Shown: positions 25,188 through 60,120, counted from the stretch's first letter. The stretch: DNA of 64,000 nt from Bdellovibrionia bacterium (GCA_045805065.1 JBJMMA010000060.1:15462-79461), one strand, 5' to 3'. The notes: generated from the sequence alone by a model not told the origin. Made by a program: numbers and translations.

Positions 25188-25287
25188 GCGTGTGTTTGTC
25201 GGTGAGGGCATGTGTGCTCTGGTGGAGAACGGATTGTGCTCTATTAGGCTAGACAGATTGTCGGCAGGGGGATATTCGCTGCCGCAT

Positions 25288-26115
25288 ATGTCAGTTCTGG
25301 AGTTTGATAACTATCGGCTGTACTTGCGCTCCGTACTTGCTGATCGGGCATCGACAAATCCGAGGTACTCTCTTCGGGCATTCGCGAAGAGTCTCGAGCT
25401 GGCTCCCTCCTATTTATCGGCAGTCATGAATGGAAAGAAATCACTTTCTCCTGAGACTGCTTACGCTGTAGCGGAGAAGCTCAGATTAGATGAACAAGAG
25501 GCAACGTATTTCCGCATCCTGGCTCAGATGGAAGCCACGAAAAATCCTGCTTTGAAAGAGAGCTTGCTTCAGCGAGCTCAGACTCTTGCCCCAAGTGTGG
25601 TTGTGAATGATCTCAGCGTTGATCAGTTCAAAATGATCTCTGACTGGCATCACTACGCCATATTTGCGGCGGTCGATCTCTCTGACATTGAGGCGACGCC
25701 AGAACGGATTGCAAAAATCCTTGGACTAAACCTTGCTGAAGTCCAAGTTGCCGTGGAGCGCATGATCCGATTGGAGATGCTCGAGAAGGACGCAGAAGGG
25801 CGCTTAAAACAAACGATCTCACATTCAAGGATTGTTTCGTTGGCGCCCAACAGGGCAGTGAGAAGCCATCACCGTCAGAACTTGGAAAAAGCGATCGAGA
25901 GTATCGGATTGCAGAGGCCGGATGAAAGATTCATGGGGTCTGAGACCTTTTGTATTGATGAATCACAATTTGAGGAGTTTCAGAAGCTCTGCAACCAGTT
26001 CCTCGACAGCGCGCTGGCTCTCGCGAAGAAAGCGAAGACCAAAAACCAGGTGTACCACTTAGGTGTTCAGTTTTTCAGGTTTTCACAAGAAAAACCAAAG
26101 GAAGAAAAAAAATGA
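25288..26115 (+). CDS. TIGR02147-like putative HTH regulator (paralog 1 of 3)
   Basis: The N-terminus MSVLEFDNYRLYLRSVL parallels MKPFEFNDYRLYL (51586) and MLFEYRDYKKYL (53983). The three proteins are similar throughout (LSxxSHF/SPEx helix, conserved C-terminus). The track ORF starts upstream at 25027 and runs through repeat copy A. An alternative start is at 25207. Confidence 0.6.
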   Translation: MSVLEFDNYRLYLRSVLADRASTNPRYSLRAFAKSLELAPSYLSAVMNGKKSLSPETAYAVAEKLRLDEQEATYFRILAQMEATKNPALKESLLQRAQTLAPSVVVNDLSVDQFKMISDWHHYAIFAAVDLSDIEATPERIAKILGLNLAEVQVAVERMIRLEMLEKDAEGRLKQTISHSRIVSLAPNRAVRSHHRQNLEKAIESIGLQRPDERFMGSETFCIDESQFEEFQKLCNQFLDSALALAKKAKTKNQVYHLGVQFFRFSQEKPKEEKK

Positions 26116-27086
26116 GAAGCATGCAATCAGGCTCAGTCCTTGTAAGTTTGACGTGCGGATTATCACTCATGTTTGCAATTAATGCGATGGCAGGTGGAGG
26201 GGGCGTACGCGGCGGCGGCGGCGATATCTGCGAAGATCGCATCCAGCAGATCCGGGATGATATCAAGTCCTGGATCCATCAAGGTGGCGCGCAGGGATTA
26301 TCACTTCCGCAAGGAGTCTCCGCAGATCGGTATGCCGACCTGATGCTAGATCAAATGAAAACCGCACGCGTGAAATGCGTCGGCGCGGCAGACAAAGGTT
26401 ACCCGGTCGCGATCGGAAGCACGCCAAAGGTTTGCAAGTTCTCAATCGATCAATCGGGCTCTCAGATTACTTGTGACTACATCAAGTTTCTCGCGACTAA
26501 CGAATCGGACCAATACGTTTTGATTCATCATGAGTACGCGGGGCTTGCGGGTGTCGAGGTCCCTAACCAGGGCGATTCCCGCTACGACGTTTCCAATCAG
26601 ATCTCCGCCTATCTTGAAGACCAGGTTGTGAAGAAGCTTGCGGTAAAGCCCGTAACCTCCGAGCTCCAGGTGGGTTCGAGAGTTGTCATCGATGACAATC
26701 AATTTGAGACCAAAACCGGCCAGATTACTTCGATCACTTCCGGAAAGTACACCTATTATCAGGTCAGGCTATCCAATAACTCGGGTAGGGCGGGAGATGA
26801 GCAAATCATTGAGAGAAGTTACATCAAGGCGACCGAAGTCGGCAGTCTGAATGGCGTGAGAAAAGGTCAGAAAGCCATCTGCAGGAATATTTACGACATT
26901 TCCGGCAGCGCGTTTGAAGGCAACGTTGCTCATATTTATTCAAACGGTTTCGTCGAAATCACTATTTCGACCAAGAAGGCCACTTCGGTTACGTCCACTT
27001 CTCAGTTATCTGAAGGACCCCTGTTTTTGTCGTCGGTCCCAGGCGCTTGGGAAATTCCTCGCTTTGGATACAACTGCTCTTATTAA
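26112..27086 (+). CDS. secreted GGGGD-I-C family protein (paralog 1 of 3)
   Basis: Signal peptide MRSMQSGSVLVSLTCGLSLMFAINA, then GGGGVRGGGGDICEDRIQQIRDDIKSWIHQGG and QYVLIHHEYAGLAGVE. It is clearly homologous to the 52780..53730 product and more distantly to the 50560..51411 product. Confidence 0.65.
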   Translation: MRSMQSGSVLVSLTCGLSLMFAINAMAGGGGVRGGGGDICEDRIQQIRDDIKSWIHQGGAQGLSLPQGVSADRYADLMLDQMKTARVKCVGAADKGYPVAIGSTPKVCKFSIDQSGSQITCDYIKFLATNESDQYVLIHHEYAGLAGVEVPNQGDSRYDVSNQISAYLEDQVVKKLAVKPVTSELQVGSRVVIDDNQFETKTGQITSITSGKYTYYQVRLSNNSGRAGDEQIIERSYIKATEVGSLNGVRKGQKAICRNIYDISGSAFEGNVAHIYSNGFVEITISTKKATSVTSTSQLSEGPLFLSSVPGAWEIPRFGYNCSY

Positions 27087-27092
27087 AAATTA

Positions 27093-27221
27093 GAACAAAA
27101 CAATACGAGTAAAGAACAAAGATAAAAGTCCTCGTTGTGACATCCTGTCACATTCCCAGTCGTCTTCCTGACTGGGAACGACTCGGCTTTTATCTTTGTT
27201 CTTTACTCGTATTGTTTTGTT
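27093..27221 (+). repeat. copy B of the hairpin element family: perfect 36-bp inverted repeat around the conserved core
   Basis: GAACAAAACAATACGAGTAAAGAACAAAGATAAAAG at 27093-27128 is exactly complementary to 27186-27221. The core is TCCTCGTTGTGACATCCTGTCACATTCCCAGTCGTCTTCCTGACTGGGAACGACTCGG. It lies between the convergent genes 26112(+) and 27278(-). Confidence 0.75.
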
Positions 27222-27235
27222 CACGTTTGTTAGAC

Positions 27236-31725: not shown

Positions 31726-32835
31726 TTAGTCTTGCTGGACAGGACCATTGATGCCGGAGACGGATCCAATCGTGCCGCCAATGACGTGCACGCCTCCGTC
31801 GGCATTTGAAACAGAGTCAACGTTTCCATCGATGACAATGATGTGACCGTGAGCTCCTACGATGGATCCTACGTCCATACCGCAGACAAAGATACTGCCA
31901 TGGTTCTCATTGATTTTCTGAATCCGCGGCTGCTGCTCAGAAGAAGGTAATTTTCTTCCAACGAGAACCAAGTGGCCATCGCCGTCTGAGATCGAAACCA
32001 CAGAGTTGGCACTCACAGCAGGTGAGCCATGGACGCTTTGGATCGAAGCGATCTGTTGAGCAATAATCGTGCTATTGCCGCCGATATCATTGATCGTTCC
32101 AACCATGACTGCGTTCAAGTCAGCGCCGCCACTAATATGAGAAACCTCGAGGATGCTGCGGGCAATGGCTTTGACACCGCCATGGATTTGCGAAATGACG
32201 TTGATAGTCTCTCCCGCAGAAATGGATAATGAGCTGTTCGTGCCCACATAGGATGCCGCTGGCATCTGGACGACGGGCTTGTCTTCGTAGACGATTTTTT
32301 GATCACGAAGCTTGATGGCCTTTCTGCATTGTGCGACCGCTTCATTCGCTTCCGGATCGTTTCCGTAGTTAGGTTTACTCGATGGCGATGCGCTAGGCTT
32401 AGGCGAAGGCATGTCAGAAGGCTTAGACGAAGGCTGAGATGAAGGTTGGCCAATCGGCTGCGACGAAGGCATGCCAGAAGGCATCGACGAAGGTTGGCCA
32501 CTAGGCTGCGACGAAGGTTGTGAAGAAGGCATGCCTGATGGCATCGAAGAAGGCTGACCCGAAGGCATTGGCATCGGGTTAGGCAATCCCGGAATCGATG
32601 AAGGCATTGGCATCGGGTTAGGATGACCGCTCGGCATTGATGAAGGCATTGACGATGGAGACGCTGATGGTTCTGGAGCTATGTCTCCAGGAGTGGGAGC
32701 TGCGAGATTTGCTCCGCTATTTGGCTGAACGCCAGGGACGGATTTTACGTCATAGGGCGTCTCGCAAGCCGTGAGAAGGCCGATGCTTGAAAGCGTCGTG
32801 CACATCAACAATGAAAACTTATTGTTCTTCCCCAT
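31726..32835 (-). CDS. lipoprotein with a Pro/Ser-rich tandem-repeat linker and a Gly/Ile/Ser/Val-rich C-terminal beta-repeat domain
   Basis: Lipobox LLTAC. There are about 14 tandem PSSMPSG / QPSSQPS units, and the C-terminus carries IGG/SGG-rich repeats. Confidence 0.6.
   Translation of the reverse strand: MGKNNKFSLLMCTTLSSIGLLTACETPYDVKSVPGVQPNSGANLAAPTPGDIAPEPSASPSSMPSSMPSGHPNPMPMPSSIPGLPNPMPMPSGQPSSMPSGMPSSQPSSQPSGQPSSMPSGMPSSQPIGQPSSQPSSKPSDMPSPKPSASPSSKPNYGNDPEANEAVAQCRKAIKLRDQKIVYEDKPVVQMPAASYVGTNSSLSISAGETINVISQIHGGVKAIARSILEVSHISGGADLNAVMVGTINDIGGNSTIIAQQIASIQSVHGSPAVSANSVVSISDGDGHLVLVGRKLPSSEQQPRIQKINENHGSIFVCGMDVGSIVGAHGHIIVIDGNVDSVSNADGGVHVIGGTIGSVSGINGPVQQD
32380..32700 (-). 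repeat. tandem 21-24 nt coding repeats (GAAGGCATxxx units) encoding the PSSMPSG linker
   Basis: The periodicity is visible in the DNA. Copy number in such tracts is often variable between strains. Confidence 0.5.
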
Positions 32836-50214: not shown

Positions 50215-50310
50215 AGGGGGGATTTATCGCACAATACGCCGCGCGGCGCAACGGAACCAAAAGGTGGTCGCCTACTTTTGGTAGCGATAGTGCGTCAAGG
50301 TTCTTTATCC

Positions 50311-50440
50311 GAGTAAAACAAAGCGAATAGGGCTCTTTAGCTAAAATCCCTCGTTGCGACTTCCTGTCGCATGCCCATTCGGCATCCTGCCTGGGCACGA
50401 CTCGGTTTTTACCTAAAGAGCCCTATTCGCTTTGTTTAAC
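50311..50440 (+). repeat. copy C of the hairpin element family
   Basis: The arms GAGTAAAACAAAGCGAATAGGGCTCTTTAGCTAAAA and TTTTACCTAAAGAGCCCTATTCGCTTTGTTTAAC pair with one mismatch. The core is TCCCTCGTTGCGACTTCCTGTCGCATGCCCATTCGGCATCCTGCCTGGGCACGACTCGG. Relative to copy A it has a compensatory U-A to G-C change (TTCCCA/TGGGAA becomes TGCCCA/TGGGCA). Confidence 0.75.
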
Positions 50441-50454
50441 CAGGTTCGTTAATT

Positions 50455-50496
50455 GTGACGCGTATGCGCTACAAAAAGGAGGCGACCACCTTTTGG
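50455..50496 (+). other. conserved 42-nt box (copy 2 of 3): GTGACGCGTATGCGCTACAAAAAGGAGGCGACCACCTTTTGG
   Basis: It has a one-nucleotide difference from the 27236 copy. Confidence 0.55.
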
Positions 50497-50559: not shown

Positions 50560-51411
50560 TTATTTGCAGGTGATGGATTCGAATCGGGAGAGTTTGGAGT
50601 AGTCGACTTCAGTGACTACGATTACGGTGCCCCCGAGGCTTGCGCTATCTTTCGCTTTGAGGCCCTTTAAGTGTCCATTTTCATCAACAGAGGCATAATC
50701 ACTGCCGCTGACTTCGCTCTGTGAGTAGGAGGTCGCATTCTGATATTGAAGGAACTTGCAGATTCCTTGTGCGACTGGCTCCGATCTCTCATTTTCTACG
50801 TGGATGGTATCCACTGGAATCCCTAAGAACAGGGCTTTTGCGTATTTGTTTTCGGTTCCGAAATAGAATTTCTTGCCGTTCACCATGGCAAAAGGACGAA
50901 TGAATGTGACGGAACCGTCGTTGTTTTCCATGACCTGATCCGCGCTCATGCGATTGTTGATCGCTTGGGAGTTCGTACGAGCGATTTTAACCAAGTCTTC
51001 GGAAATGTAGTACTCGCCGTCATTTTCGTAACCCGCGAGGACGGACATTTCGTGAGCAGTGAGGCCGAGCTTTTGGTTCAGGTCCAGCTTTTCCCACTCG
51101 TTGACGAGAAGGTCCGTTTGTCCAGTGGCAGGGTTGGAGCGAGCTTGGCGATCCAGTTGCACTACGGGTAAGCATCTTAAGTTTCTTTTCACTTGAATCA
51201 GATCGTCCAGGCGAACCAGCGGATTGATTGCGTTGATTTTGTCCTGGCCGGCAAGCGCGAGAGTTTTTACGATCTCGCCCATGAGGTTGGCGTATTCGAG
51301 GCAGCGAGCATCGCCACCGCCGCCTGAGCGGGGGCCGGCGTGGGCAGGGCTCACAAGAAGACTTGTGAGAAGAGTGAAGGCAAAGATCGAAGACGAAAGT
51401 TTGCGGGACAT
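50560..51411 (-). CDS. secreted GGGGD-C family protein (paralog 2 of 3, divergent from the TIGR02147-like regulator at 51586)
   Basis: Signal peptide MSRKLSSSIFAFTLLTSLLVSPAHA, then GPRSGGGGDARCLEYANLMGEIVK, with similarity to the 26112 and 52780 products in the central region. Confidence 0.6.
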   Translation of the reverse strand: MSRKLSSSIFAFTLLTSLLVSPAHAGPRSGGGGDARCLEYANLMGEIVKTLALAGQDKINAINPLVRLDDLIQVKRNLRCLPVVQLDRQARSNPATGQTDLLVNEWEKLDLNQKLGLTAHEMSVLAGYENDGEYYISEDLVKIARTNSQAINNRMSADQVMENNDGSVTFIRPFAMVNGKKFYFGTENKYAKALFLGIPVDTIHVENERSEPVAQGICKFLQYQNATSYSQSEVSGSDYASVDENGHLKGLKAKDSASLGGTVIVVTEVDYSKLSRFESITCK

Positions 51412-51585: not shown

Positions 51586-52380
51586 ATGAAGCCCTTTGAG
51601 TTTAATGACTACAGACTCTACCTCGATGCTCGAATCAAAGCGGAGTGGGGCGCGATCACTCGTGTAGCCAAGGCGGCAAATTGCCAGCGATCGTATTTGT
51701 CGAGAGCGCTTAAGGGAGAGGTTCTTCTCACTCCCGATCATCTGCATGGCATCTGTGAGTTTTGGCGTCTCTCAGAAGAGGAGACCGAATATCTCATGCT
51801 GCTTCTTGAAAAAGCGCGCGCCTCCACGCGCTCTTATCGTGAGCGAGTGGAGAGAAAGCTTTCGCTGCTTCTGCGTGAGCAGGAAGATCTCGCAAAGCGA
51901 TTGCATACGCCAAGAATTCCCACGACGGATCGGGAGCTTCTTTACTATTCAGCGTGGCATTGGATCATGATTCACATGAGTACGTCGGTTCCTTCGCTTC
52001 AGACTGAAAAAGCGATGTCTCAGCATCTGAATCTTTCGCCTGAGCTCGTTCGATTCGCGCTGACTCAGCTTGCGGAATGGGGGCTTGTCAAACGGGAAGG
52101 TGATCGATGGAAATTTGCCTCAGGCAATATTCATCTTCCAAAAAACTCGCCCCTCATTGGCCAGCACCACGCGCATTTCAGACAGAAGGCGGTTGAGGAT
52201 TCACTTCTGCCTTATGGAGATGGGCTACATTACTCACAGCTTCAAGCGATGGAAGAGGAGACTTTCCGCGAGATCAAAGCGCTCTTTTTGCGATCCATTG
52301 ATGATTCTTTGAAGCTTGCGGATCCAGCGAAAGAAGATAGGCTTGTTGCCGTGAGTCTGGATGTTTTTCGGGTTTATTGA
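51586..52380 (+). CDS. TIGR02147-like putative HTH regulator (paralog 2 of 3)
   Basis: MKPFEFNDYRLYLDARIKAEWGAITRVAKAANCQRSYLSRALKGEVLLTPDHLHGICEFWRLSEEETEYLMLL parallels the other two paralogs. A -10-like TATATT lies 8 nt upstream of the ATG with no SD (possibly leaderless). A GTCAATA direct repeat lies upstream. Confidence 0.65.
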   Translation: MKPFEFNDYRLYLDARIKAEWGAITRVAKAANCQRSYLSRALKGEVLLTPDHLHGICEFWRLSEEETEYLMLLLEKARASTRSYRERVERKLSLLLREQEDLAKRLHTPRIPTTDRELLYYSAWHWIMIHMSTSVPSLQTEKAMSQHLNLSPELVRFALTQLAEWGLVKREGDRWKFASGNIHLPKNSPLIGQHHAHFRQKAVEDSLLPYGDGLHYSQLQAMEEETFREIKALFLRSIDDSLKLADPAKEDRLVAVSLDVFRVY

Positions 52381-52433: not shown

Positions 52434-52736
52434 TCAATCAATGCAGGCAAAGCAGACTGCGTATCGTGCTGAAGCTCTGCCAAGATAAGCTTCAAGCGAA
52501 ACTTGGTAACAGCTGTATCCAGCTTCTTGAGCGGCTTTGCGGCAGCCCATCGCGGAGTTCGGACCGTTAGGAAGCAAGTCGCAGTTTCCGTTTGGGTACA
52601 AGTCCTGGATCAGATCGCCAATGAAATTTCGATGTTCCACAAGATGCGTGCTGCGGTTGCAGGATGTGATGACGTCATCTGCGTGTGCGAGGGTTGAGGC
52701 CAGGGTCAAACTAAGAATCATAACTAAGTTTTTCAT
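52434..52736 (-). CDS. small secreted cysteine-rich protein (100 aa, 7 Cys after signal-peptide cleavage)
   Basis: The internal ATG at 52736 gives MKNLVMILSLTLASTLAHA, a signal peptide, followed by a Cys-rich mature part. It is co-transcribed downstream of the 52780..53730 gene. Confidence 0.5.
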   Translation of the reverse strand: MKNLVMILSLTLASTLAHADDVITSCNRSTHLVEHRNFIGDLIQDLYPNGNCDLLPNGPNSAMGCRKAAQEAGYSCYQVSLEAYLGRASARYAVCFACID

Positions 52737-52779: not shown

Positions 52780-53730
52780 TTAGTCATTCGCGTAAGCAAT
52801 GCAGCGAACTGAGTTCCGGTCTTCATAAGAAGTCTGGTATATTTTTCCGCTATCACCGCTGAGAACAAGTAAATGCATCCAGGCGCCTGTGTAAGGAGAG
52901 TTGCTCCAAACGTATTCGTTTTCCATATGTGGAAGGACTTCATGGAGGCCGTGGCCTTCGGCGTGTTTAAGATTCTCAGCCGATGGCATGATGCTGCCAA
53001 CCTTGCGGCAAATATCTTCTGCATAAACATAGGAGTCGACTCCCAGTTTATCGCTCCAGATGATCCCGTTTGGATCCTTCCATGCTTCGCCAAAACCCTC
53101 GTAATCGACGCGCTCAAAAATTCCTTGAGCTGAGGTGATGCACTTTGTTCCAACGCGAATCGGTTTTGTGTGATCGAGCTCAGAGCAATCTACAGGCGCT
53201 TGCGGGCGGGGGGCGATCGCGAGTTTCTTCACAAGCTCATCGACAAGAAACGCGGAGAGCTGGTTAGAGACGCTGTAGTCAGAATTCTCTCCCACGTTGA
53301 TCTCAATGCCTGTCAGTCCTGCGTATTCGTGATGAACGAGGACGTACTGTGAGGATTCGTCCGTATCGAGAAATCTTTTTGCGTTACAGGTGATTCTGGA
53401 TGCGCCGCCTGCGACGAAGTTCTTGCAGGTTTTTTCCGCGCCTTCGACCATCACGGGTTGGTCGGTGCAGCTGATTTTGGCTTCTGCGATCGCCTTCAGC
53501 ATCAGCTCATTGTAGCGTTGCGTTCGTGTCCCGGAAGATAGCTCAAGCCCGGACGAGCCGTTCTTATTAATCCAGGATGCGATATCGTCTCGCACCGTTT
53601 TAAAGCGATTTTCACAGATATCTCCTCCGCCACCTGATCCTGCACCGGCAGAGGCGTTGGCCGAGTGGAAAGTGAGCAGAGATACGGCCAGAGTGGCCAA
53701 CAGTGATGAGAATGGCGAGCGTAACACCAT
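52780..53730 (-). CDS. secreted GGGGD-I-C family protein (paralog 3 of 3)
   Basis: Signal peptide, then GAGSGGGGDICENRFKTVRDDIASWINKNGS and QYVLVHHEYAGLTGIE, a close paralog of the 26112..27086 product. Confidence 0.65.
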   Translation of the reverse strand: MVLRSPFSSLLATLAVSLLTFHSANASAGAGSGGGGDICENRFKTVRDDIASWINKNGSSGLELSSGTRTQRYNELMLKAIAEAKISCTDQPVMVEGAEKTCKNFVAGGASRITCNAKRFLDTDESSQYVLVHHEYAGLTGIEINVGENSDYSVSNQLSAFLVDELVKKLAIAPRPQAPVDCSELDHTKPIRVGTKCITSAQGIFERVDYEGFGEAWKDPNGIIWSDKLGVDSYVYAEDICRKVGSIMPSAENLKHAEGHGLHEVLPHMENEYVWSNSPYTGAWMHLLVLSGDSGKIYQTSYEDRNSVRCIAYAND

Positions 53731-53982
53731 AGGGACTCCTATTTATTTTCGCCGCAGCGGTAGGGTTGTATTATTGTTGACTATTGAAGTCAACAAATGG
53801 GTTCTGGTTTAATTTAGCCGTAGTTTTAAAGAGTTAACCTCGCCGTCACCCTCCCTTAGCTTGCTGCGGCTATTTGAGGGTGACGACTTGAGCGGTGTTT
53901 TAACGCGGTGCATGCGTTTGAGATAGATATGTTTTATAAAAATACATTCGAAAAACTGACTATTTACTCAATAATTGAGGAA

Positions 53983-54804
53983 ATGCTCTTTGAATATCGC
54001 GACTATAAAAAATATCTCAATGCGGCTCTCTCAACGGGAGGGGCTTCGCGTGGAAGTCGCACTCGCCTGGCCGAGGCGCTTCGATGTCAGACCGCATTTA
54101 TCTCGCATGTGCTGAATGGCAACTCGCATTTCAGTCTTGAGCATGCGGTGGTGATCTCGCGCTTTCTCAATCACACGCCGGATGAATCGAAGTATTTCAT
54201 TCTCCTCGTTAGCCTGGGGCGTGCCGGATCCAAAGAGCTTGAGGATCATTTCAAGGCGCAGATCGATGAGATGCAGAAAAAGCGTGCGCAGATCAAAGAG
54301 CGCATTACTGTCGATCGCGCGCTGACGGCAGAAGCCCAGATTCGATACTACAGTGCCTGGTATTACTCGGCGATTCACGTGGCGACGTCAATCTCTGCGC
54401 TGCAGACGCGAGATGCGCTTGCCTCAGCGTTGAATCTTTCGCCAGCTCTGGTGAATGAATGCCTGGAGTTTCTGGCTGAACACGGCCTCGTGGTCGCGAA
54501 GAAAGACAGATATGTGATTGGTCCGGTGCGGATGCATCTCGGCGCAGATTCGCCGATGATCTCAAGGCTTCACGCCAACTGGCGCCTGCAAGCCATGCAG
54601 TCGATGGAACGCCCGGTGGCTAGAAATACAAGTGATCTGCATTACTCCACTGTCCTTACGATTTCGCACGAAGATGCAAAGCGGGTGAGAGAAGCGTTGC
54701 TTCGTGCAGTCGATGAAACCGAAAAGATCTTCCGGCCATCACCCGAAGAAGTCGTCTACTGCGTCGGAATGGACTGGTTTCGTGTCTCGCGAGATGGAAG
54801 CTGA
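53983..54804 (+). CDS. TIGR02147-like putative HTH regulator (paralog 3 of 3)
   Basis: The start is chosen at MLFEYRDYKKYL by paralog alignment, with GAGGAA just upstream. The track ORF opens at 53908. Confidence 0.6.
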   Translation: MLFEYRDYKKYLNAALSTGGASRGSRTRLAEALRCQTAFISHVLNGNSHFSLEHAVVISRFLNHTPDESKYFILLVSLGRAGSKELEDHFKAQIDEMQKKRAQIKERITVDRALTAEAQIRYYSAWYYSAIHVATSISALQTRDALASALNLSPALVNECLEFLAEHGLVVAKKDRYVIGPVRMHLGADSPMISRLHANWRLQAMQSMERPVARNTSDLHYSTVLTISHEDAKRVREALLRAVDETEKIFRPSPEEVVYCVGMDWFRVSRDGS

Positions 54805-54805
54805 A

Positions 54806-54868
54806 CCGAACAAATCATAAATAAGAACCTCAGTTAAAAACCGAGGTTCTTATTTATGATTTGTTCGG
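54806..54868. terminator. perfect 26-bp inverted repeat hairpin (bidirectional terminator between convergent genes)
   Basis: CCGAACAAATCATAAATAAGAACCTC, loop AGTTAAAAACC, GAGGTTCTTATTTATGATTTGTTCGG. The stop codons of both flanking genes lie within 6 nt of the stem. Confidence 0.65.
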
Positions 54869-54874
54869 CTCTGG

Positions 54875-55402
54875 TTATTTGCAGGGGCTGACGACAAAAC
54901 CGCCGATGAAGGAGCCGAGTACTTTGCCGTTCTTATCATTTGCTTCGATGATTGCGCTCATTCCGTAAACGGTTGCGGCGCCGACTTGGTAGACGCGAAC
55001 GGAGCGCACTGCCTTGAGGTCGATGCCTGCGCTGAAAAATCCGTTCATGGCTGGGTCGTTCACAAGACTGTAAGCATGGACGAGCAGTCTTTCGCCGAGA
55101 TTAAGCTGAGCGAGATACTCATCCGAAGGATCGTTGAGGTCTTGGTCAATAGGGTGAGTGATCAGGTGGAAGGACATTTCAGCGGTGTCTTCGTAGCTCG
55201 ATGTTTTTCCATTCACGGTCTGAGTGACTTGAGCGCGAAGGCCGCCATGGTCCTTGTATACGGTCATCGTCGTTGGAACGATCTCACCGGATCCATCCAT
55301 TTTCTTCAGATCTGAAGAGCACGTCTTCACGGGAAGTGCAGTCGCTCCCAAAGCTTGAACAGACAAAAGGACGCTCAGCGTAGAAATGAGAAAAGTCTTC
55401 AT
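54875..55402 (-). CDS. small secreted protein, member of a 4-paralog family (N-terminal KTC, C-terminal PCK)
   Basis: Signal peptide MKTFLISTLSVLLSVQALGA. It is 55-60% identical by eye to the 58052..58573 product. Confidence 0.6.
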   Translation of the reverse strand: MKTFLISTLSVLLSVQALGATALPVKTCSSDLKKMDGSGEIVPTTMTVYKDHGGLRAQVTQTVNGKTSSYEDTAEMSFHLITHPIDQDLNDPSDEYLAQLNLGERLLVHAYSLVNDPAMNGFFSAGIDLKAVRSVRVYQVGAATVYGMSAIIEANDKNGKVLGSFIGGFVVSPCK

Positions 55403-55504
55403 AGAACCTGCTTTCGTTGCGCGTTCTATCGACAGCCCCCGGGCCTGTCAAATTAATTGAAAGGGGAGACTCGGTCTGGAATGTCCTGTGACCTGTAAGG
55501 AGCG

Positions 55505-56197
55505 CTAATACGGATCGACCACGAACATTCGGCCTGTTTTGGCCTCTACGATTACATTGTCTGGCTTGTGTAAAATCATGAAGCGCTGACCGTTCTCCTG
55601 GTAGGGAGAGTAGCAAGAGTAGAGAGAGTTGCGAGTTCTGTGGAGGGGTCTGATGGAGTGAGGGTCGGCTCTCATGGCGGCGTAGACGCTTTTAACGAAT
55701 TGATTCCATCTTCGAGTAAGTTCGACTCGCTCAGAATGGGAAAGGTTCGGATCTTCAATCGCTTTCTCGAGCGTTTCTCCTTCGATGTTTGGAAGTTTCA
55801 TCGAGCGCTTTCCAAGAAGCTCTGGATGAACGATCTCAATTCCATCTGTGTGAGGCATTAACTTGTGAAGTTTTGAGAATGCCAATGCGTCCCACGTTCG
55901 CTGCCCAGAATCGAAATACTCTTTCAGAACATACGGAGGTTTGCCGTTGGAAGGGTGTACGCGGTAGACAGTGCCGCCATGCTCTCCTTCTCCCAAAAAC
56001 AAATAGCGAGAAGTGGGATCGTAAAGCTCAAGGCCCGAGACCTTGCTACGAGTGGCGACCTTGCCGAGATGAGTTTTAATTTTTAACTGAATGCATTGGA
56101 ACGTTGATCCAAAAACCGAGGCAGGACCTGAGAGCGCAATCAGCACACACAAAAGCTGTAGCAGGGATGAAAAAAGTTTTCGTTCCATATTTCTCAA
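55505..56197 (-). CDS. secreted hypothetical protein with a kinase-catalytic-loop-like motif (LHKPDNVIV...VVDPY)
   Basis: Signal peptide. The motif MILHKPDNVIVEAKTGRMFVVDPY resembles HxDxKPxNhLh...DFG of protein-kinase-like folds. Weak; family not recognised. Confidence 0.5.
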   Translation of the reverse strand: MRNMERKLFSSLLQLLCVLIALSGPASVFGSTFQCIQLKIKTHLGKVATRSKVSGLELYDPTSRYLFLGEGEHGGTVYRVHPSNGKPPYVLKEYFDSGQRTWDALAFSKLHKLMPHTDGIEIVHPELLGKRSMKLPNIEGETLEKAIEDPNLSHSERVELTRRWNQFVKSVYAAMRADPHSIRPLHRTRNSLYSCYSPYQENGQRFMILHKPDNVIVEAKTGRMFVVDPY

Positions 56198-56500
56198 TCA
56201 GGATAACTTACGACTGAGTAAAAAGATCGAGTCAAAGAATTGGCTTTTTGGCACCAGCTGCTGGGTTCATTTGAGCACCAGGAGCAAAACGCATTATCAG
56301 ATCATTGTTTAAGGTCTTTCTGATGATTTGTGCGTGATCTCATCGACATTACTTCTTGCGTCAAGGTGTGTGGCACGTGAGGCACCGGCCTTGCTCAGTG
56401 CCCCAGACACTCGGTGCTGTTTGCCGAAAACCCCTGGGATTAATAATCCGTTCATGGGCGTGAGCCCGTGAGCATTACTTTGACTCGAAGGAGTATGAAA

Positions 56501-57121
56501 ATGAAGAAGCTCAATTTGGCGATGATGGCAGTGTCTGCGATGGCCTCAATGGTTTCTCTCGCGCATGCGGATGATATCAGTCTTGGTATGCCTGGATACG
56601 GCGGAACGGGTTGTCCTGATGGAACTGTTTCAGCCACGCTCAGCCCGGATTCCAAAACATTGAGCCTTATTTTCGACCAGTACGTTGCTGAGGCCGGTGG
56701 CACCACAGGTCGCCGTCTGGATCGCAAGAACTGCCAGATCGCGATCCCTGTGCACGTCCCACAAGGCTACAGCTTCTCCATCATTGATATGGATTATCGC
56801 GGATACAACAGTCTGCCAGCAGGCGCGAGCTCGCAATTTAATGTCGAATATTTCCTGGCTTATCCGGGCTCTCCAGCTCGCGGTTCTCGATACTCGAAGA
56901 GCTTCACTGGTCCGTTGGATCAGGAATACCTCGTTCAAAATCAGCTGGGACTTGAAGCTACGGTCTGGTCTCCTTGTGGAACCGACGTGAACCTGAGAAC
57001 GACCACTTCCATGGTCGCTACATCCAATCGTCGCGGCGATCAGACGATGGCAACCGTGGACAGCATCGATGCCAAGGCAGGGGTGATCTACTCGCTGCAG
57101 TGGCGTAAGTGCAGCCGGTAA
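56501..57121 (+). CDS. secreted protein, tandem paralog 1 of a GTGCPxGTVSATLSPD family
   Basis: AAGGAG lies 8 nt upstream of ATG 56501. Signal peptide MKKLNLAMMAVSAMASMVSLAHA, then GTGCPDGTVSATLSPDSKTLSLIFDQY. Confidence 0.6.
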   Translation: MKKLNLAMMAVSAMASMVSLAHADDISLGMPGYGGTGCPDGTVSATLSPDSKTLSLIFDQYVAEAGGTTGRRLDRKNCQIAIPVHVPQGYSFSIIDMDYRGYNSLPAGASSQFNVEYFLAYPGSPARGSRYSKSFTGPLDQEYLVQNQLGLEATVWSPCGTDVNLRTTTSMVATSNRRGDQTMATVDSIDAKAGVIYSLQWRKCSR

Positions 57122-57209
57122 TTCGCAAACACAATTAACGAACCGATCACGATCCCAAAGCCTGGTGCATAGGGAAGCTTGAGTTTGGCTTGAGTTTGAA
57201 GGAGGAATA

Positions 57210-58031
57210 ATGAAACGAGCTTTAGAGATGGCGAATGCGGCAGTCATGATTCTTCTCACTCAAGTTTCCCTTGCCTGGGCGGATGATCCAGTCGTGCAAC
57301 TCAGTACTCCCACATACGATGGTACGGGATGTCCCTCTGGCACTGTTTCGGCGACGCTCTCGCCAGATGCCACAGCTTTAAGTTTAATTTTTGATAAGTT
57401 TTCAGTGGAGACGGGCAAGGGCGCAAGCAATATGCCCGTGGATCAGAAGAGCTGTACCTTCCAAGTTCCGATGACTGTTCCTGCTGGCTACGCCGTCACG
57501 GTCATGCGTGTGGATTATCGCGGATATCATTCTTTGCCTGCAGGATCAGTTGCAACTTTTCGATCCTCTTTCGGGTTCTTAGACGGTGCGCGTGATCACC
57601 GGCTCGGAAACAACCTTCTTCAACTTTTCCGTGGACCAACGGATGGAGACTTTTTATTTTCTCAAAACGCTACTTTCAGTGAATGGTCCGCGTGTGGTGG
57701 TAGTGTCCAGTTGCGACTCAACACGGCTCTGGGGCTGCAAGGCAGCCCGCGCGGAGAGCTTGCCACGGTGTCTATTGACTCGGCTGATATGACGGGTGAG
57801 CGCCAGTTGCAGTATGTCCTGGCGTGGAGAAAATGCGACGGAACTGTCTTGCGTCCGGGGCAACCAGGACATCCAGTCGGTCCTCTCGGACCAGGACACC
57901 CGATCGGTCCGCATGGTGGTCCACATGGAGATGGAAGGCCAGGATTGGGCGGACATGGCCCTGACCAAATGTCAGGTCGAGGCGCGCCAGACCGAGGCGG
58001 AATGGGCCGCGGCGGGCCGATACGCAGATGA
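57210..58031 (+). CDS. secreted protein, tandem paralog 2 of the GTGCPxGTVSATLSPD family, with a Gly/Pro/His-rich C-terminal tail
   Basis: RBS GGAGGAATA. GTGCPSGTVSATLSPDATALSLIFDKF is present. The C-terminal PGHPVGPLGPGHPIGPHGGPHGDG is low-complexity. Confidence 0.6.
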   Translation: MKRALEMANAAVMILLTQVSLAWADDPVVQLSTPTYDGTGCPSGTVSATLSPDATALSLIFDKFSVETGKGASNMPVDQKSCTFQVPMTVPAGYAVTVMRVDYRGYHSLPAGSVATFRSSFGFLDGARDHRLGNNLLQLFRGPTDGDFLFSQNATFSEWSACGGSVQLRLNTALGLQGSPRGELATVSIDSADMTGERQLQYVLAWRKCDGTVLRPGQPGHPVGPLGPGHPIGPHGGPHGDGRPGLGGHGPDQMSGRGAPDRGGMGRGGPIRR

Positions 58032-58051
58032 TCCAATCGGTTGCTGTAAAA

Positions 58052-58573
58052 TTATTTACAAGGGCTGACGATCAAGCCGCCGATGAAGGATCCCATGACA
58101 GCGCCCGAATCGTTCATTGCTTCGATGATGGCGGTGGTGCCGAATTCGGAGAATGCGCCGATTTGAAAGACCCGGACGGATTGAACTGCTTTGAGATCCA
58201 GACCCGCGCTGAAAACGCCTTTGAGTTCAGGATCGGTAGTGACTGCATAAGCATGAACGAGAAGTTCTTCACCCAAGTTGAGTTTTGCTCGATCTGCTGG
58301 GGTGATTCGATCAATGCGATGGTTGATCAAGTAGAAGGATTCCTGAGCTTCGTCTTCGTACGAGGTCGTTTGCCCATGGATCGTCTGGGTGACTTTTCCA
58401 CGAACTTCGCCTTGTTCTGAATAAACTGTCATTGTGGTGGGAATGACTTCGCCCGATCCGTCGAGCTTCTTGAAATCAGAGGAGCAGGACTTGAGCGGAA
58501 ATGAAGTCGCTCCCATGGCTTGAGCCGAGAGAAGAACTCCGAGTAACGACACGGTAAACGACTTCATATTCAA
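58052..58573 (-). CDS. small secreted protein, KTC...PCK family paralog
   Basis: Signal peptide SLLGVLLSAQAMGA. The C-terminus is GGLIVSPCK. Confidence 0.6.
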   Translation of the reverse strand: MNMKSFTVSLLGVLLSAQAMGATSFPLKSCSSDFKKLDGSGEVIPTTMTVYSEQGEVRGKVTQTIHGQTTSYEDEAQESFYLINHRIDRITPADRAKLNLGEELLVHAYAVTTDPELKGVFSAGLDLKAVQSVRVFQIGAFSEFGTTAIIEAMNDSGAVMGSFIGGLIVSPCK

Positions 58574-58591
58574 CCTGCTTATTGACTGGGA

Positions 58592-59128
58592 TTATTTACA
58601 AGGGGCGAGTGACAACATGACCATGAAGTAAGATCCGAGGCTCTTTCCCTTTTTATTGTAAGCTTCAAAAATCGCCGTTCCATCATCGTCACCGAATTTG
58701 TAGACCGTGACAGAGCGTACATCGTTCACGTCATAGCTGAGCTCGGACTTAACAACGGAGAGTTCCGCATCTTTAAGCTCTGAGGCCATGAAGAGCAGCA
58801 TTTCGCCTTCATTATATTTGCTTTCGATATCCTCTGCTGACTCAGCGTCTGTGTCCGAAGACGAAGACATTTCTTTGAGTAGATTTGGCCTGACCTTAAA
58901 TTTCTGAATTTTCACTTTCTCTTCTTCGGGGGCCACGGGCTTTCCATCATTCATCCCCGATACTTTGGCGATGACTGAGCCATTGTTTTTATAAACTTCG
59001 GCCTGAAGCAAGTACGGGGCTTTGCCGTCCTCGAGTTTGAATTCAGCCGTACACGTCTTAATTGGAGTCGCTGCCATGGCTTGAGCGGAGAGGAGAAGGG
59101 ATAGAATCGAAAAAGATAGAGTCTTCAT
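58592..59128 (-). CDS. small secreted protein, KTC...PCK family paralog (divergent, acidic insert)
   Basis: Signal peptide ILSLLLSAQAMA. The C-terminus is LSLAPCK. Confidence 0.6.
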   Translation of the reverse strand: MKTLSFSILSLLLSAQAMAATPIKTCTAEFKLEDGKAPYLLQAEVYKNNGSVIAKVSGMNDGKPVAPEEEKVKIQKFKVRPNLLKEMSSSSDTDAESAEDIESKYNEGEMLLFMASELKDAELSVVKSELSYDVNDVRSVTVYKFGDDDGTAIFEAYNKKGKSLGSYFMVMLSLAPCK

Positions 59129-59161
59129 AAATGCATTTCCTACTTTTGTACGCGTTAAACC

Positions 59162-59701
59162 TTATTTGCAGGGGACGGCGACATCTCCGCCTACGAAAGT
59201 TCCAAGGAGCTTGCCGGACTCATCATACGCGTCGATGATCGAGACAATTCCCAGCTGAGTCATTGGTCCGATGCGATAGGCCTTCACGGAGCGAATCGCA
59301 TTCAGGTCCACGCCGGCGCCAGGGCTGAGTCCCTTGTCCACTTCGCTCCTCAACATGGCTTTCGCAATGAGCTCTTCTCCCTTGTTCAGGTGGAGCTTGT
59401 CCGCGCCTTCGCGCTCGCTATCGTCTGCGTCGTATCCATTCTCAGTCAGCAATGCCAGGCCGGCTCTAATTTCATACTTGGAGATGCTGACATAATCCTC
59501 ACTGCTCGTTGTTTGCCCGCGAACGGTTTCGGTAATGATCACCGAGCCGTCCTCGTCCTTTAGTATTTCAAACTTTACCGAGGCATACGAACTGGAGCCT
59601 TCGTCCACCGAAGCAGTGCAAGTTTTGAACGGCGCTGGAAAGGCTGCCATTGCCTGAGCGGAGAGGAGAAGAGTCAGTGCGGAAAGAGATAGAGCTTTCA
59701 T
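59162..59701 (-). CDS. small secreted protein, KTC...PCK family paralog
   Basis: Signal peptide LTLLLSAQAMA. The C-terminus is GGDVAVPCK. Confidence 0.6.
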   Translation of the reverse strand: MKALSLSALTLLLSAQAMAAFPAPFKTCTASVDEGSSSYASVKFEILKDEDGSVIITETVRGQTTSSEDYVSISKYEIRAGLALLTENGYDADDSEREGADKLHLNKGEELIAKAMLRSEVDKGLSPGAGVDLNAIRSVKAYRIGPMTQLGIVSIIDAYDESGKLLGTFVGGDVAVPCK

Positions 59702-59939
59702 AATTTCACGGCCTACTTTCTAAGCGGCTTTATATAGGCGCCATGGAATATAGTCAACTAAATTAGTAAGGTATTATGAGAGCACGAAGTGGGTAGGCCG
59801 ACAGTGCCAGGTTTAACTTTTTTTACAGGTACTTAAGTTGAGCTGAACGATGCGGGAGGAGTCCGTGTGACCAACGGCAGGCTCCACTGGCGCCTCTCGG
59901 TTTGGTAGTTCAAACAACAGTAAATATCGAGAATGAGGA

Positions 59940-60059
59940 AAGCAAAGAGAGCTGAGAAAAGAGATAAAAACCGAGTCCTTCCCAGGCAGGATGCCGTATG
60001 GGAAGGTGACAGGATGTCACAACGAGGGCTTTTATCTCTTTTCTCAGCTCTCTTTGCTT
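59940..60059 (+). repeat. copy D of the hairpin element family, with the core inverted relative to copies A-C
   Basis: The arms AAGCAAAGAGAGCTGAGAAAAGAGATAAAAA and TTTTTATCTCTTTTCTCAGCTCTCTTTGCTT form a perfect 31-bp stem. The core CCGAGTCCTTCCCAGGCAGGATGCCGTATGGGAAGGTGACAGGATGTCACAACGAGGG is the reverse complement of the A/B/C core consensus. The downstream box is still in + orientation. Confidence 0.75.
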
Positions 60060-60086
60060 TGTTCGGATTTCAGACTTTGCTGCGGG

Positions 60087-60116
60087 TGCGCTACAAAAAG
60101 GAGGCGACCACCTTTT
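60087..60116 (+). other. conserved box (copy 3 of 3): GCGCTACAAAAAGGAGGCGACCACCTTTT, abutting the stop of the minus-strand gene 60121..60783
   Basis: A 29-nt core is shared with the 27236 and 50455 boxes. The 5' GTGACGCGTAT part is replaced here. Confidence 0.5.
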
Positions 60117-60120
60117 ACTT

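What the first reader, a model, noticed from the sequence alone, without database searches (positions are those of the whole stretch)
54875..59701. Array of two small secreted-protein families (4 paralogs of KTC...PCK proteins; 2 tandem GTGCPxGTVSATLSPD proteins)
Four genes of ~175 aa lie at 54875, 58052, 58592 and 59162, all on the minus strand. They share a signal peptide ending SAQAMA/G, an N-terminal KTC, a conserved central L(H)xxK/NxGEEL(L/I) block and a C-terminal S/A/V-PCK. Two cysteines bracket the mature protein, so a disulfide-closed fold is likely. Between them sit two tandem paralogs (56501, 57210) with the block GTGCP(D/S)GTVSATLSPD..LSLIFD. The second carries a PGHPxGP low-complexity tail. 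A secreted kinase-like-motif protein (55505) is also present. Local tandem amplification of exported small proteins is typical of fast-evolving interaction factors, and repeat element copy D immediately follows the array.
Basis: seen in the sequence. Interest (0 to 1): 0.55.

Follow-up and report, generated by a model that had tools for sequence, protein, structure and literature searches.

The report
Variable islet of exported predator proteins
A 5-kb stretch of a predatory-bacterium (Bdellovibrionia) genome carries four old copies of an undescribed family of small exported proteins, two DUF4360 proteins and an exported truncated kinase-like protein. Its copy number changes between close relatives by recombination inside the shared signal-peptide sequence, which is interesting for predator biology but not a new kind of system.

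Summary
Four paralogs of 171-179 aa (35-62% identical) lie on the minus strand. Two DUF4360 genes lie on the plus strand, and a 227-230 aa exported protein sits among them.

The four paralogs belong to a family with no Pfam, NCBIfam or PDB match. It has 246 clusters at 50% identity, and every named source is Bdellovibrionota. Its hallmarks are a Sec signal peptide, Cys28 and Cys174 (both present in 161 of 169 members), invariant Glu104, and a C-terminal PCK. A confident AlphaFold model has no convincing Foldseek match.

The gene is single-copy in 11 other loci and two-copy in one close relative, so four copies is exceptional. In that relative the gene is a chimera of the fam4 promoter and signal peptide joined to the fam2 body. 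This is the footprint of unequal recombination in the conserved signal-peptide-coding segment.

The duplications are ancient (synonymous sites saturated), and orthologs are under purifying selection (dN/dS 0.07-0.12). "Fast-evolving, recently amplified" is therefore only partly right.

The 230-aa protein has a kinase-like fold, but it ends at the DFG-equivalent and lacks the HRD aspartate.

Function is inferred: disulfide-stapled binding proteins of the envelope or prey interface.

The parts
59162..59701 (-). fam4: first gene of the fam4-fam3-fam2 run. A 179-aa exported protein of the KxC...PCK family.
   Evidence: ORF; family HMM E = 4e-48. The nearest relative anywhere is 45% identical. It is absent from the syntenic relatives L009, L006 and L001.
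58592..59128 (-). fam3: the most divergent paralog, 178 aa, 33 nt downstream of fam4.
   Evidence: HMM E = 2e-45. The nearest relative is 36% identical, and it departs from the family consensus at several conserved positions (GGF becomes VML, SAG becomes ELS). Its signal-peptide DNA is 78% identical to that of fam4, against 43% for the rest of the gene.
58052..58567 (-). fam2: 171 aa from the ATG (173 aa from the TTG at 58573). It is convergent with DUF4360b, with a 20-nt gap.
   Evidence: P0001, 171 aa, NCBI ACJ763_04390. The ortholog in L009 is 92% identical, with dN/dS 0.09.
54875..55402 (-). fam1: 175 aa, 102 nt downstream of the kinase-like gene.
   Evidence: Orthologs are 91% identical in L009 and 81% in L006, with dN/dS 0.07 and 0.12. 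The AlphaFold model has pLDDT 85.6.
56501..57121 (+). DUF4360a: an exported 206-aa DUF4360 protein with four conserved Cys. An alternative ATG start lies at 56495.
   Evidence: Pfam PF14273, E = 3.9e-50, 170.6 bits against a cut-off of 27. Orthologs are 94-95% identical, with dN/dS 0.03-0.05.
57210..58031 (+). DUF4360b: a 273-aa DUF4360 protein. The domain covers residues 29-209, followed by a Gly/Pro/His-rich tail at about 57837-58028.
   Evidence: Pfam E = 1.3e-36. The tail is kept in orthologs. Orthologs are only 65-67% identical, with dS about 1.9-2.1 against about 0.5-1.1 for neighbouring genes.
55505..56188 (-). Exported truncated kinase-like protein: 227 aa from the ATG, 230 aa from the TTG at 56197.
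   Evidence: Only 6 homologs were found. Conserved motifs are LGxGxxGG(T/S)V(Y/F)RV, LK(E/Q)Y, LKPDN and a C-terminal DP(Y/F). The AlphaFold model has pLDDT 82.6. The Foldseek top 50 are protein kinases, pseudokinases and one aminoglycoside phosphotransferase, at probability 0.99-1.0.
59729..59757 (-). Candidate sigma-70-type promoter of the fam4-fam3-fam2 run: TTGACT, 17 nt, TATAAA.
   Evidence: Read directly from the sequence. The scan did not report it, because that scan requires T at the last position of the second hexamer. The segment is 83% conserved upstream of the chimeric gene in L009.
54815..54859 (.). A 20-bp-stem hairpin between the convergent genes fam1 and TIGR02147b. It is a likely bidirectional terminator.
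59934..60118 (-). Palindromic repeat element copy D, at the border between the DUF1318 gene and the islet.
50255..50496 (.). Palindromic repeat element copy C (a double, inverted copy), at the border between the islet and the cbs gene.
53908..54804 (+). TIGR02147/DUF4423 family HTH regulator b. It is convergent with fam1 and divergent from the 316-aa exported protein.
   Evidence: NCBIfam TIGR02147, 65.3 bits against a cut-off of 50; Pfam DUF4423, E = 4.7e-17.

Best explanation
**What it is.** The region is part of a roughly 9.5-kb gene-content-variable islet in a Bdellovibrionia (predatory bacteria) genome. The islet lies between a conserved DUF1318 gene and the cbs/cgl operon, and is bordered by copies of a structured palindromic repeat.

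**The four paralogs.**
- They are ancient duplicates of one gene from an undescribed family. Every named source of that family is Bdellovibrionota.
- Each encodes a protein of about 150 aa (mature length).
- The signal peptide predicts export through Sec and cleavage by signal peptidase I.
- The model folds as a seven- to eight-stranded antiparallel sheet with a helical hairpin.
- A near-invariant Cys pair (KxC and PCK) is inferred to staple the first strand to the C-terminus.

**Their neighbours.** These are a tandem pair of DUF4360 beta-sandwich proteins and an exported, C-lobe-less kinase-like protein. DUF4360 is the family that includes B. bacteriovorus Bd2850 and Bd2851, and to which the crystal structure of the predation-linked Bd1399 is related.

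**How copy number changes (shown).** Unequal homologous recombination occurs inside the conserved signal-peptide-coding 5' ends of the tandem copies.

**Selection (shown).** Every retained copy is under purifying selection.

**Function (inferred, not shown).** The proteins are non-enzymatic, protease-resistant binding modules acting in the predator periplasm, at its surface or in the prey. The four copies offer diverged binding surfaces. The strongest differences are in the N-terminal sheet and in an acidic loop of 17-29 residues.
For: **Family and range**
- There is no Pfam or NCBIfam hit, no PDB sequence hit, and no Foldseek hit in the PDB or BFVD (best E = 0.02, TM about 0.2-0.4).
- The family has 246 cluster representatives at E <= 1e-3.
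- All named sources are Bdellovibrionota.

**Conserved features**
- C28 and C174 are both present in 161 of 169 members. E104 is present in 169 of 169, and G163 in 167 of 167.
- The model has pLDDT 85.6, with residues 1-19 unstructured, as expected of a signal peptide.

**DUF4360**
- Pfam scores are far above threshold, and four Cys are conserved.
- For Bd1399, Bd2850 and Bd2851, see PMC10792529.

**Kinase-like protein**.

**Islet variability**
- Synteny with L009, L006, L001, L017 and L019 shows different gene content between the same flanking genes.
- Repeat copies lie at the borders in the window, L009 and L006.

**Copy number**: 4, against 2 in L009/L010 and 1 in 11 other loci.

**Recombination footprint**
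- The L009 gene consists of the fam4 promoter and signal peptide joined to the fam2 body. The switch lies in the segment coding LLLSAQAMA.
- The 5' ends are homogenised: 78% against 43% nucleotide identity for fam3 and fam4.

**Selection**: dN/dS is 0.07-0.12, and paralog pS is 0.68-0.80.
Against: - No experiment or homology links the KxC...PCK family to any function.
- Export, the disulfide and the binding role are all inferred from sequence and a predicted model. I could not obtain the model's coordinates, so the Cys-Cys distance was not measured.
- An invariant Glu together with conserved Asn, Asp and Arg could equally mark an active site.
- The association with DUF4360 is seen only in three closely related genomes and is absent from all more distant loci. 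It may simply be shared ancestry.
- The direction of the recombination event (deletion in L009 or gain in the window lineage) rests on parsimony.
Confidence: 0.6

Rival explanations
1. One reading: a recently and locally amplified array of fast-evolving interaction or effector proteins, under diversifying selection in an arms race with prey.
For: - Copy number differs among close relatives.
- fam3 and fam4 have no relative above 36% and 45% identity in 15 billion proteins.
- The loop between strand 4 and helix 1 varies from 13 to 33 residues across the family.
- DUF4360b is strongly diverged between relatives.
Against: - Paralog synonymous sites are saturated, so the duplications are old.
- Ortholog dN/dS is 0.07-0.12, within or just above the range of neighbouring genes.
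- DUF4360b has high dS as well, about 2, with dN/dS 0.11. This points to an old divergent allele, not rapid adaptive change.
- The family is single-copy elsewhere.
Confidence: 0.2
2. Immunity or partner model: the KxC...PCK proteins are periplasmic neutralisers or chaperones of the adjacent DUF4360 proteins or the kinase-like protein. The extra copies would then be an orphan-immunity-type array.
For: - A family gene lies tightly convergent with DUF4360b (gaps of 13-25 nt) in the window, L009 and L006.
- The kinase-like gene directly precedes fam1 in both the window and L006.
- Small exported paralogs in tandem resemble immunity-gene arrays (from general knowledge).
Against: - Eleven more distant loci carry the family gene alone, with unrelated neighbours and no DUF4360 or kinase-like gene within 6-8 kb.
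- L001 keeps the family gene but has no DUF4360.
- L017 and L019 have the kinase-like gene next to DUF1318 with no family gene on the contig.
- DUF4360 is not known to be toxic.
Confidence: 0.1
3. A housekeeping envelope protein: a small periplasmic enzyme or ligand or metal carrier unrelated to predation. The extra copies would be neutral leftovers in a recombination-prone region.
For: - The gene is single-copy with strong purifying selection and invariant polar residues (E104, N101, D128, R133, E153, D156).
- Its neighbourhoods in other genomes are varied and of a housekeeping type.
- One JGI record calls a member 'azurin'.
- One member has a sub-threshold HasA hit, E = 0.06.
Against: - No member reaches any Pfam threshold, and no cupredoxin hit is found even at E <= 1.
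- The family appears restricted to a predatory phylum.
- All four copies keep intact reading frames and the core motifs.
Confidence: 0.1

Closest known systems
DUF4360 (PF14273) proteins of Bdellovibrio: the tandem pair Bd2850/Bd2851 and the structurally related Bd1399 (PDB 8OKH)
   Same: The two plus-strand genes are clear DUF4360 members. They are exported, lie in tandem like Bd2850/Bd2851, and carry four Cys at conserved positions. This matches the two disulfides described for Bd1399.
   Different: They are not detectably similar in sequence to any PDB chain, including 8OKH. Orthology to Bd2850/Bd2851 could not be tested. DUF4360b carries an extra Gly/Pro/His-rich tail of about 64 residues. 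The function of DUF4360 itself is unknown.
Eukaryotic-like Ser/Thr protein kinases (e.g. PknA, PknB, ERK2) and pseudokinases
   Same: The 230-aa protein has a Gly-rich loop, a VAIK-type Lys, a KPDN catalytic-loop remnant and a DFG-type Asp. Its model matches kinase structures at Foldseek probability 0.99-1.0.
   Different: It has a signal peptide and ends at the DFG-equivalent, so there is no activation segment or C-lobe. The HRD Asp is replaced by Leu or His. It has no Pfam Pkinase hit. TM-scores are only 0.37-0.47. Only 6 homologs are known.
Fibrobacter succinogenes-type paralogous cassettes (a TIGR02147 regulator next to an exported paralogous-family protein)
   Same: Two TIGR02147/DUF4423 regulators in the islet, and a third at about 25.2-26.1 kb, each sit beside a gene for an exported protein. 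The pairing of TIGR02147 with secreted paralogous families in F. succinogenes is recalled from the TIGRFAMs description, not tested here.
   Different: The KxC...PCK genes are not the divergent partners of the regulators; fam1 is merely convergent with one. No regulatory link was tested.
Tandem arrays of exported paralogs that expand and contract by unequal crossing-over (e.g. orphan immunity gene arrays, surface-protein families)
   Same: The genes are direct tandem copies whose 5' ends are kept similar, and there is a chimeric gene at the deletion junction in a relative.
   Different: The copies are ancient and highly diverged outside the signal peptide. There is no toxin partner, and no evidence of phase or antigenic variation.

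Membership tests
DUF4360 (Pfam PF14273) | Score above the Pfam gathering threshold over the whole domain. | tested here: met
   170.6 and 126.5 bits against a cut-off of 27, covering profile positions 5-178 and 3-178 of 178.
DUF4360 (Pfam PF14273) | Four conserved Cys forming two disulfides, as in Bd1399 (N-terminal loop to beta5; beta11-12 loop to the C-terminus). | tested here: met
   Cys at four invariant alignment positions in all six orthologs and paralogs (C38, C78, C159 and C204 of DUF4360a). Actual disulfide formation cannot be tested here. The feature is taken from PMC10792529.
DUF4360 (Pfam PF14273) | Elongated beta-sandwich fold. | not tested
Protein kinase-like superfamily (230-aa ORF) | Kinase fold: an N-lobe sheet with the C helix, a hinge and a catalytic loop. 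| tested here: met
   The Foldseek PDB top 50 are protein kinases, pseudokinases and APH(3'), at probability 0.99-1.0, E = 3.5e-4 to 1.7e-3, with 172-250 aligned columns. TM-scores are modest (0.36-0.47).
Protein kinase-like superfamily (230-aa ORF) | Catalytic HRD aspartate. | tested here: not met
   The position two residues before the conserved Lys of LKPDN is Leu in all six homologs; the residue between them is Leu in five and His in the window protein. This rests on my alignment to the HRDLKPEN consensus.
Protein kinase-like superfamily (230-aa ORF) | Complete C-lobe with an activation segment. | tested here: not met
   All six homologs end 0-1 residue after the DP(Y/F) motif.
Protein kinase-like superfamily (230-aa ORF) | Match to a Pfam or NCBIfam kinase model. 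| tested here: not met
   No kinase family at E <= 0.1 in Pfam. The only NCBIfam hit is a 13.9-bit match to MAD6 kinase, against a cut-off of 460.
Any described protein family (KxC...PCK paralogs) | Sequence match to Pfam-A, NCBIfam or a PDB chain. | tested here: not met
   None of the four proteins reaches a curated cut-off. Across 31 diverse members, 12 different Pfam families are each hit by one member only, all below threshold. A profile search against PDB sequences gave 0 hits at E <= 10.
Any described protein family (KxC...PCK paralogs) | Structural match to a solved or viral predicted structure. | tested here: inconclusive
Cupredoxin/azurin (a JGI label on one member) | Match to a copper-binding domain model, and the Cu ligands. 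| tested here: not met
   No cupredoxin family among the hits at E <= 1 for 31 members, including P0014. The label appears.
TIGR02147 / DUF4423 regulators | Score above the curated cut-off. | tested here: met
   Regulator b: TIGR02147 65.3 bits against 50, and DUF4423 62.7 against 30. Regulator a: DUF4423 49.9 against 30, but TIGR02147 only 34.3 against 50.

The most novel reading that the evidence does not exclude
The KxC...PCK proteins represent a new fold family specific to predatory Bdellovibrionota. They act together with DUF4360 proteins and an exported minimal kinase-like protein as a prey-directed toolkit. The islet, bordered by a structured palindromic repeat and reshuffled by recombination in the signal-peptide sequences, would then be a dedicated cassette-exchange site for diversifying this toolkit.
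Probability: 0.15. Interest if true: 0.65.

Novelty: new variant of a known kind. Interest (0 to 1): 0.42.

Why it matters
Most proteins that predatory bacteria use on prey are still hypothetical.

- This locus defines a compact protein family that appears specific to the phylum. It has 246 clusters, no Pfam entry, a confident model and no structural match in the libraries I could search.
- The family sits beside DUF4360 proteins. That family is structurally tied to Bd1399, which the CASP15 paper describes as the only protein common to a predation-upregulation study and a predation-fitness study.
- The locus also gives a concrete, sequence-level example of how such gene arrays grow and shrink: crossover within the conserved signal-peptide-coding segment.
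- It flags an unusual exported kinase-like protein that lacks a C-lobe.

All of these can be tested in cultured Bdellovibrio relatives by deletion, secretome proteomics and crystallography.

Tried and rejected
- **Locus scans.** The genome scan with the broad alignment A4 failed for lack of a conserved stretch. The scan with A3 gave 5 loci. The metagenome scan gave only 2 loci, one of which duplicates L002.
- **Second homolog search.** It was limited by its candidate cap and added few names.
- **Remote homology between the two families.** Rejected: hhalign probability 0.1%.
- **Mobile-element cargo.** No tblastn hit for fam1 in 72,556 plasmids or 50,697 phage records. GC and GC3 of the islet genes resemble those of their neighbours.
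- **Homology between the 283-aa and 316-aa exported proteins.** They share a GGGGD..C motif, but BLASTP does not support homology (E = 0.38).
- **'Azurin' and HasA hints.** Rejected.
- **One dN/dS value discarded.** The value for TIGR02147b against L006 (0.93) is an artefact of a gapped tblastn segment used for codon extraction, and should be ignored.
- **dN/dS between paralogs.** Uninformative, because dS is saturated.
- **Rfam.** No family in the window reaches its gathering score.

Full report
**1. Observation**

ORF listing confirms four minus-strand genes:
- fam1 at 54875-55402, 175 aa
- fam2 at 58052-58573, 171 aa from the ATG at 58567
- fam3 at 58592-59128, 178 aa
- fam4 at 59162-59701, 179 aa

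They align end to end at 62, 37 and 37% identity to fam1. Each gene scores E = 1e-45 to 1e-70 against a family HMM, and no other ORF in the 64-kb window matches.

The two genes between them are on the plus strand (56501-57121 and 57210-58031). They are 42% identical to each other. The second carries a Gly/Pro/His-rich tail of about 64 residues.

**2. Source and the known parts**

The window is from a MAG labelled Bdellovibrionia bacterium (locus tags ACJ763_04375 to ACJ763_04400, contig of 80,438 bp).

*DUF4360 pair*
- The plus-strand pair are unambiguous DUF4360 proteins (PF14273; 170.6 and 126.5 bits against a cut-off of 27).
- Four Cys are invariant across orthologs and paralogs.
- The only substantive literature on bacterial DUF4360 that I found is the CASP15 target paper (PMC10792529).
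  - The crystal structure of B. bacteriovorus Bd1399 (PDB 8OKH) is an elongated beta-sandwich locked by two conserved disulfides.
  - Its structure is related to DUF4360, and to the HD100 DUF4360 proteins Bd2850 and Bd2851.
- By sequence, DUF4360a hits no PDB chain.

*Regulators*
- Two regulators in the islet (51586-52380 and 53908-54804) belong to the TIGR02147/DUF4423 family.
- A DUF4423 protein, Bd3700, is reported as up-regulated during growth inside prey (PMC12546842).

**3. The four-paralog family**

*No described relatives*
- None of the four proteins reaches any Pfam-A or NCBIfam cut-off.
- A scan of 31 diverse members gave only scattered sub-threshold hits, each from a single member.
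- A profile search of all PDB sequences found nothing at E <= 10.
- A word-seeded search of 5.8 billion clusters found 13 close relatives.
- The exhaustive HMM search of 1.84 billion representatives found 246 at E <= 1e-3 and 95 at E <= 1e-30. Nearly all are 155-225 aa.

*Taxonomic range*
- Every hit that carries an organism name is Bdellovibrionota: Bdellovibrionia, Bacteriovoracaceae, Pseudobdellovibrionaceae or Bdellovibrionales.
- One JGI record is labelled 'azurin'. No cupredoxin model matches, so I regard the label as spurious.

*Conserved features across 169 aligned members*
- Cys28 and Cys174 are both present in 161 sequences. Most exceptions are fragments.
- Glu104 is invariant (169/169), as is Gly163 (167/167).
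- N101, A110, G126, D128, L129, R133, E153, A154, D156 and F165 are conserved at 82% or more.
- The commonest C-terminus is SPCK.
- Lys two residues before the first Cys, together with an AxA site 6-10 residues upstream, argues for signal peptidase I rather than a lipobox. This is my reading of the sequence.

*Structure*
- AlphaFold2 on a 14-sequence alignment gives pLDDT 85.6 and pTM 0.79. Residues 1-19 are unstructured.
- The model has four meander strands (24-80), a variable loop, two helices (94-98 and 102-114, the second carrying N101 and E104), then three to four strands. The last residues form a bridge.
- Foldseek against the PDB and BFVD returned nothing at E <= 0.001. The best TM-scores were 0.2-0.4.
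- I could not access the coordinates, so the disulfide is inferred from co-conservation and from the position of the Cys on the terminal strands.

**4. Context and copy number**

In more distant members the gene is single-copy, apparently monocistronic, and has unrelated neighbours. An HMM scan of all fetched loci found one copy in 11 independent loci, two in L009/L010 and four in the window.

Four close relatives are syntenic with the window. The gene orders below are written in the orientation of the fetched loci, starting from the conserved 795-aa and DUF1318 genes and running towards cbs-cgl.

| Genome | Similarity to window | Order between the DUF1318 gene and cbs-cgl |
|---|---|---|
| Window | - | repeat, fam4, fam3, fam2, DUF4360b, DUF4360a, kinase-like, fam1, TIGR02147b, 316-aa, about-100-aa ORF, TIGR02147a, 283-aa, repeat |
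| L009/L010 | CBS 97% aa | repeat, fam2, DUF4360b, DUF4360a, fam1, repeat |
| L006 | CBS 96.6% aa | 83-aa, MEDS histidine kinase, kinase-like, fam1, DUF4360b, DUF4360a, repeat, TIGR02147b, 283-aa, TIGR02147a, 266-aa, repeat |
| L001 | 795-aa protein 66% aa | MFS transporter, one family gene, PAP2, TIGR02147b, 284-aa, ATPase, TIGR02147a (contig ends before cbs) |

L017 and L019 have one or two kinase-like genes directly after DUF1318.

The site is thus a gene-content hotspot.

**5. Mechanism of copy-number change**

- A blastn comparison of L009 with the window shows a split in the first family gene of L009.
  - Its upstream region and first 50 nt or so match the window's fam4 upstream region and 5' end. 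L009:4994-5109 aligns to window 59758-59643 at 82.8% identity.
  - From L009:5082 onward it matches fam2 (window 58536 downward).
- The four-way alignment places the switch inside the conserved segment coding LLLSAQAMA.
- Relative to the window, about 1.1 kb is missing in L009: the fam4 body, all of fam3 and the head of fam2. The missing segment is bounded by homologous 5' ends.
- This is the expected product of unequal homologous recombination between tandem paralogs.
- Consistent with this, the signal-peptide DNA of fam3 and fam4 is 78% identical (60% at third positions), against 43% (28%) for the rest of the genes. The 84-nt repeat family D4 is this same segment.
- Because the fam3 and fam4 bodies are ancient, deletion in the L009 lineage is the parsimonious direction. 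That direction is an inference.

**6. Selection**

Nei-Gojobori estimates:

| Gene | dN/dS | Comparison |
|---|---|---|
| fam1 | 0.07 / 0.12 | L009 / L006 |
| fam2 | 0.09 | L009 |
| DUF4360a | 0.05 / 0.03 | L009 / L006 |
| DUF4360b | 0.12 / 0.11 | L009 / L006 |
| CBS | 0.06 / 0.05 | L009 / L006 |
| CGL | 0.03 / 0.03 | L009 / L006 |
| 795-aa protein | 0.10 / 0.08 | L009 / L006 |
| DUF1318 | 0.08 / 0.15 | L009 / L006 |
| kinase-like | 0.26 | L006 (dS saturated) |

- The family genes are under ordinary purifying selection.
- DUF4360b stands out for a different reason. Its dS is about 1.9-2.1, against about 0.5-0.6 for adjacent genes in L009. This suggests an old, divergent allele brought in by recombination rather than rapid change in place.
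- Between paralogs pS is 0.68-0.80, which is saturated. The duplications are old and paralog dN/dS is meaningless.
- GC and GC3 are like those of the neighbouring genes, and there are no plasmid or phage hits.

**7. The kinase-like protein**

- The ORF at 55505-56197 has only six homologs.
- They share LGxGxxGG(T/S)V(Y/F)RV, LK(E/Q)Y, I.LKPDN.(I/V)V and TGRMF..DP(Y/F), and they end there.
- The model has pLDDT 82.6, with an N-terminal signal helix.
- It matches protein kinases, pseudokinases and APH(3') in all top-50 Foldseek hits. Probability is 0.99-1.0, E is from 3.5e-4, and TM normalised to the query is 0.36-0.47.
- The HRD aspartate position is Leu, and there is no activation segment or C-lobe.
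- It is therefore kinase-like in fold but fails the defining features of an active canonical kinase. It may bind nucleotide or act as a pseudokinase; this was not tested.

**8. Interpretation**

*Shown*
- The genes are real, conserved and bear export signals.
- The family is undescribed, and its named sources are all from one phylum.
- The four-copy array is exceptional.
- The array changes by recombination in its 5' ends.
- Each copy is constrained.

*Inferred*
- A Cys staple tying the N- and C-termini, which would protect against proteases.
- An extracytoplasmic binding role, with the diverged N-terminal sheet and an acidic loop of 17-29 residues as the specificity-bearing parts.
- A link to predation, through taxonomy and the DUF4360 neighbours.

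*Rivals* are recent diversifying amplification, an immunity or partner role for the neighbouring genes, and a housekeeping enzyme or carrier. They are weighed in the rival explanations. None is excluded, but each has specific evidence against it.

**9. Verdict**

This is a correct and useful observation. The locus is best described as a variable islet of exported-protein genes in a predatory bacterium. It contains new members of DUF4360, an undescribed family with a possibly new fold, and an odd truncated kinase-like protein. It is a new variant of a familiar kind of locus rather than a new kind of system. Interest is moderate.

Noticed in passing
window 25064-25190 (+), 27096-27222 (+), 50255-50496 (double, inverted), 59934-60118 (-); also L009 4645-4888 and 7950-8208; L006 12290-12482 and 16406-16666: A palindromic repeat element of about 125-240 nt. 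It has a conserved core of about 75 nt with two inner hairpins, and an outer stem of about 20 bp whose sequence differs between copies but is always self-complementary. RNAalifold predicts 48 pairs, 22 of them with compensatory double changes. An A-run precedes the stem and a T-run follows it, as in a bidirectional terminator, or a REP- or MITE-like element. No Rfam family reaches its gathering score. Copies mark the borders of the variable islet in three genomes.
   Followed up: partly
window ~25200-27086 (+): A second unit bracketed by two copies of the same repeat. It contains a TIGR02147-like regulator followed by a 324-aa exported protein whose N-terminus (GGGGDICEDRIQQIRDDIKSWI) is clearly paralogous to the 316-aa ORF at 52780-53730. 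That ORF is itself divergently paired with TIGR02147b. This suggests modular cassettes of a regulator plus an exported protein.
   Followed up: no
window 57210-58031 compared with L009 5592-6431 and L006 10557-11351: DUF4360b is 65-67% identical between genomes whose adjacent DUF4360a is 94-95% identical. Its dS is about 2, against about 0.5-0.8 for neighbouring genes, and its dN/dS is about 0.11. This looks like replacement by an old divergent allele rather than fast evolution in place.
   Followed up: partly
window 52434-52736 (-): A small ORF of about 100 aa, 44 nt downstream of the 316-aa gene. It has a signal peptide (MKNLVMILSLTLASTLAHA) and eight Cys, and no Pfam match.
   Followed up: no
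window 50560-51411 (-); L001 11132-11986: A 283-aa exported protein of unknown family also ends in Cys-Lys (ITCK; VTCK in the L001 homolog), like the PCK end of the four paralogs. It does not match the family HMM and has no Pfam hit.
   Followed up: partly
L006 9248-12047 compared with window 54875-58573: Gene order around the DUF4360 pair differs. In L006 the kinase-like gene and a fam1-type gene sit where fam2 sits in the window, upstream of and convergent with DUF4360b. This implies a further rearrangement that I did not reconstruct.
   Followed up: no
protein P0014 (JGI), a family member: It is annotated 'azurin' by its source, although neither it nor 30 other members match any cupredoxin model. 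This is a likely annotation error that could propagate.
   Followed up: yes
window 32417-32584 and 11234-11679: Short in-frame-looking tandem repeats: units of 24 and 36 nt rich in GAAGGC at about 32.4 kb, and repeats of 141-285 nt at about 11.3-11.7 kb. They appeared in the repeat scan and were not examined.
   Followed up: no
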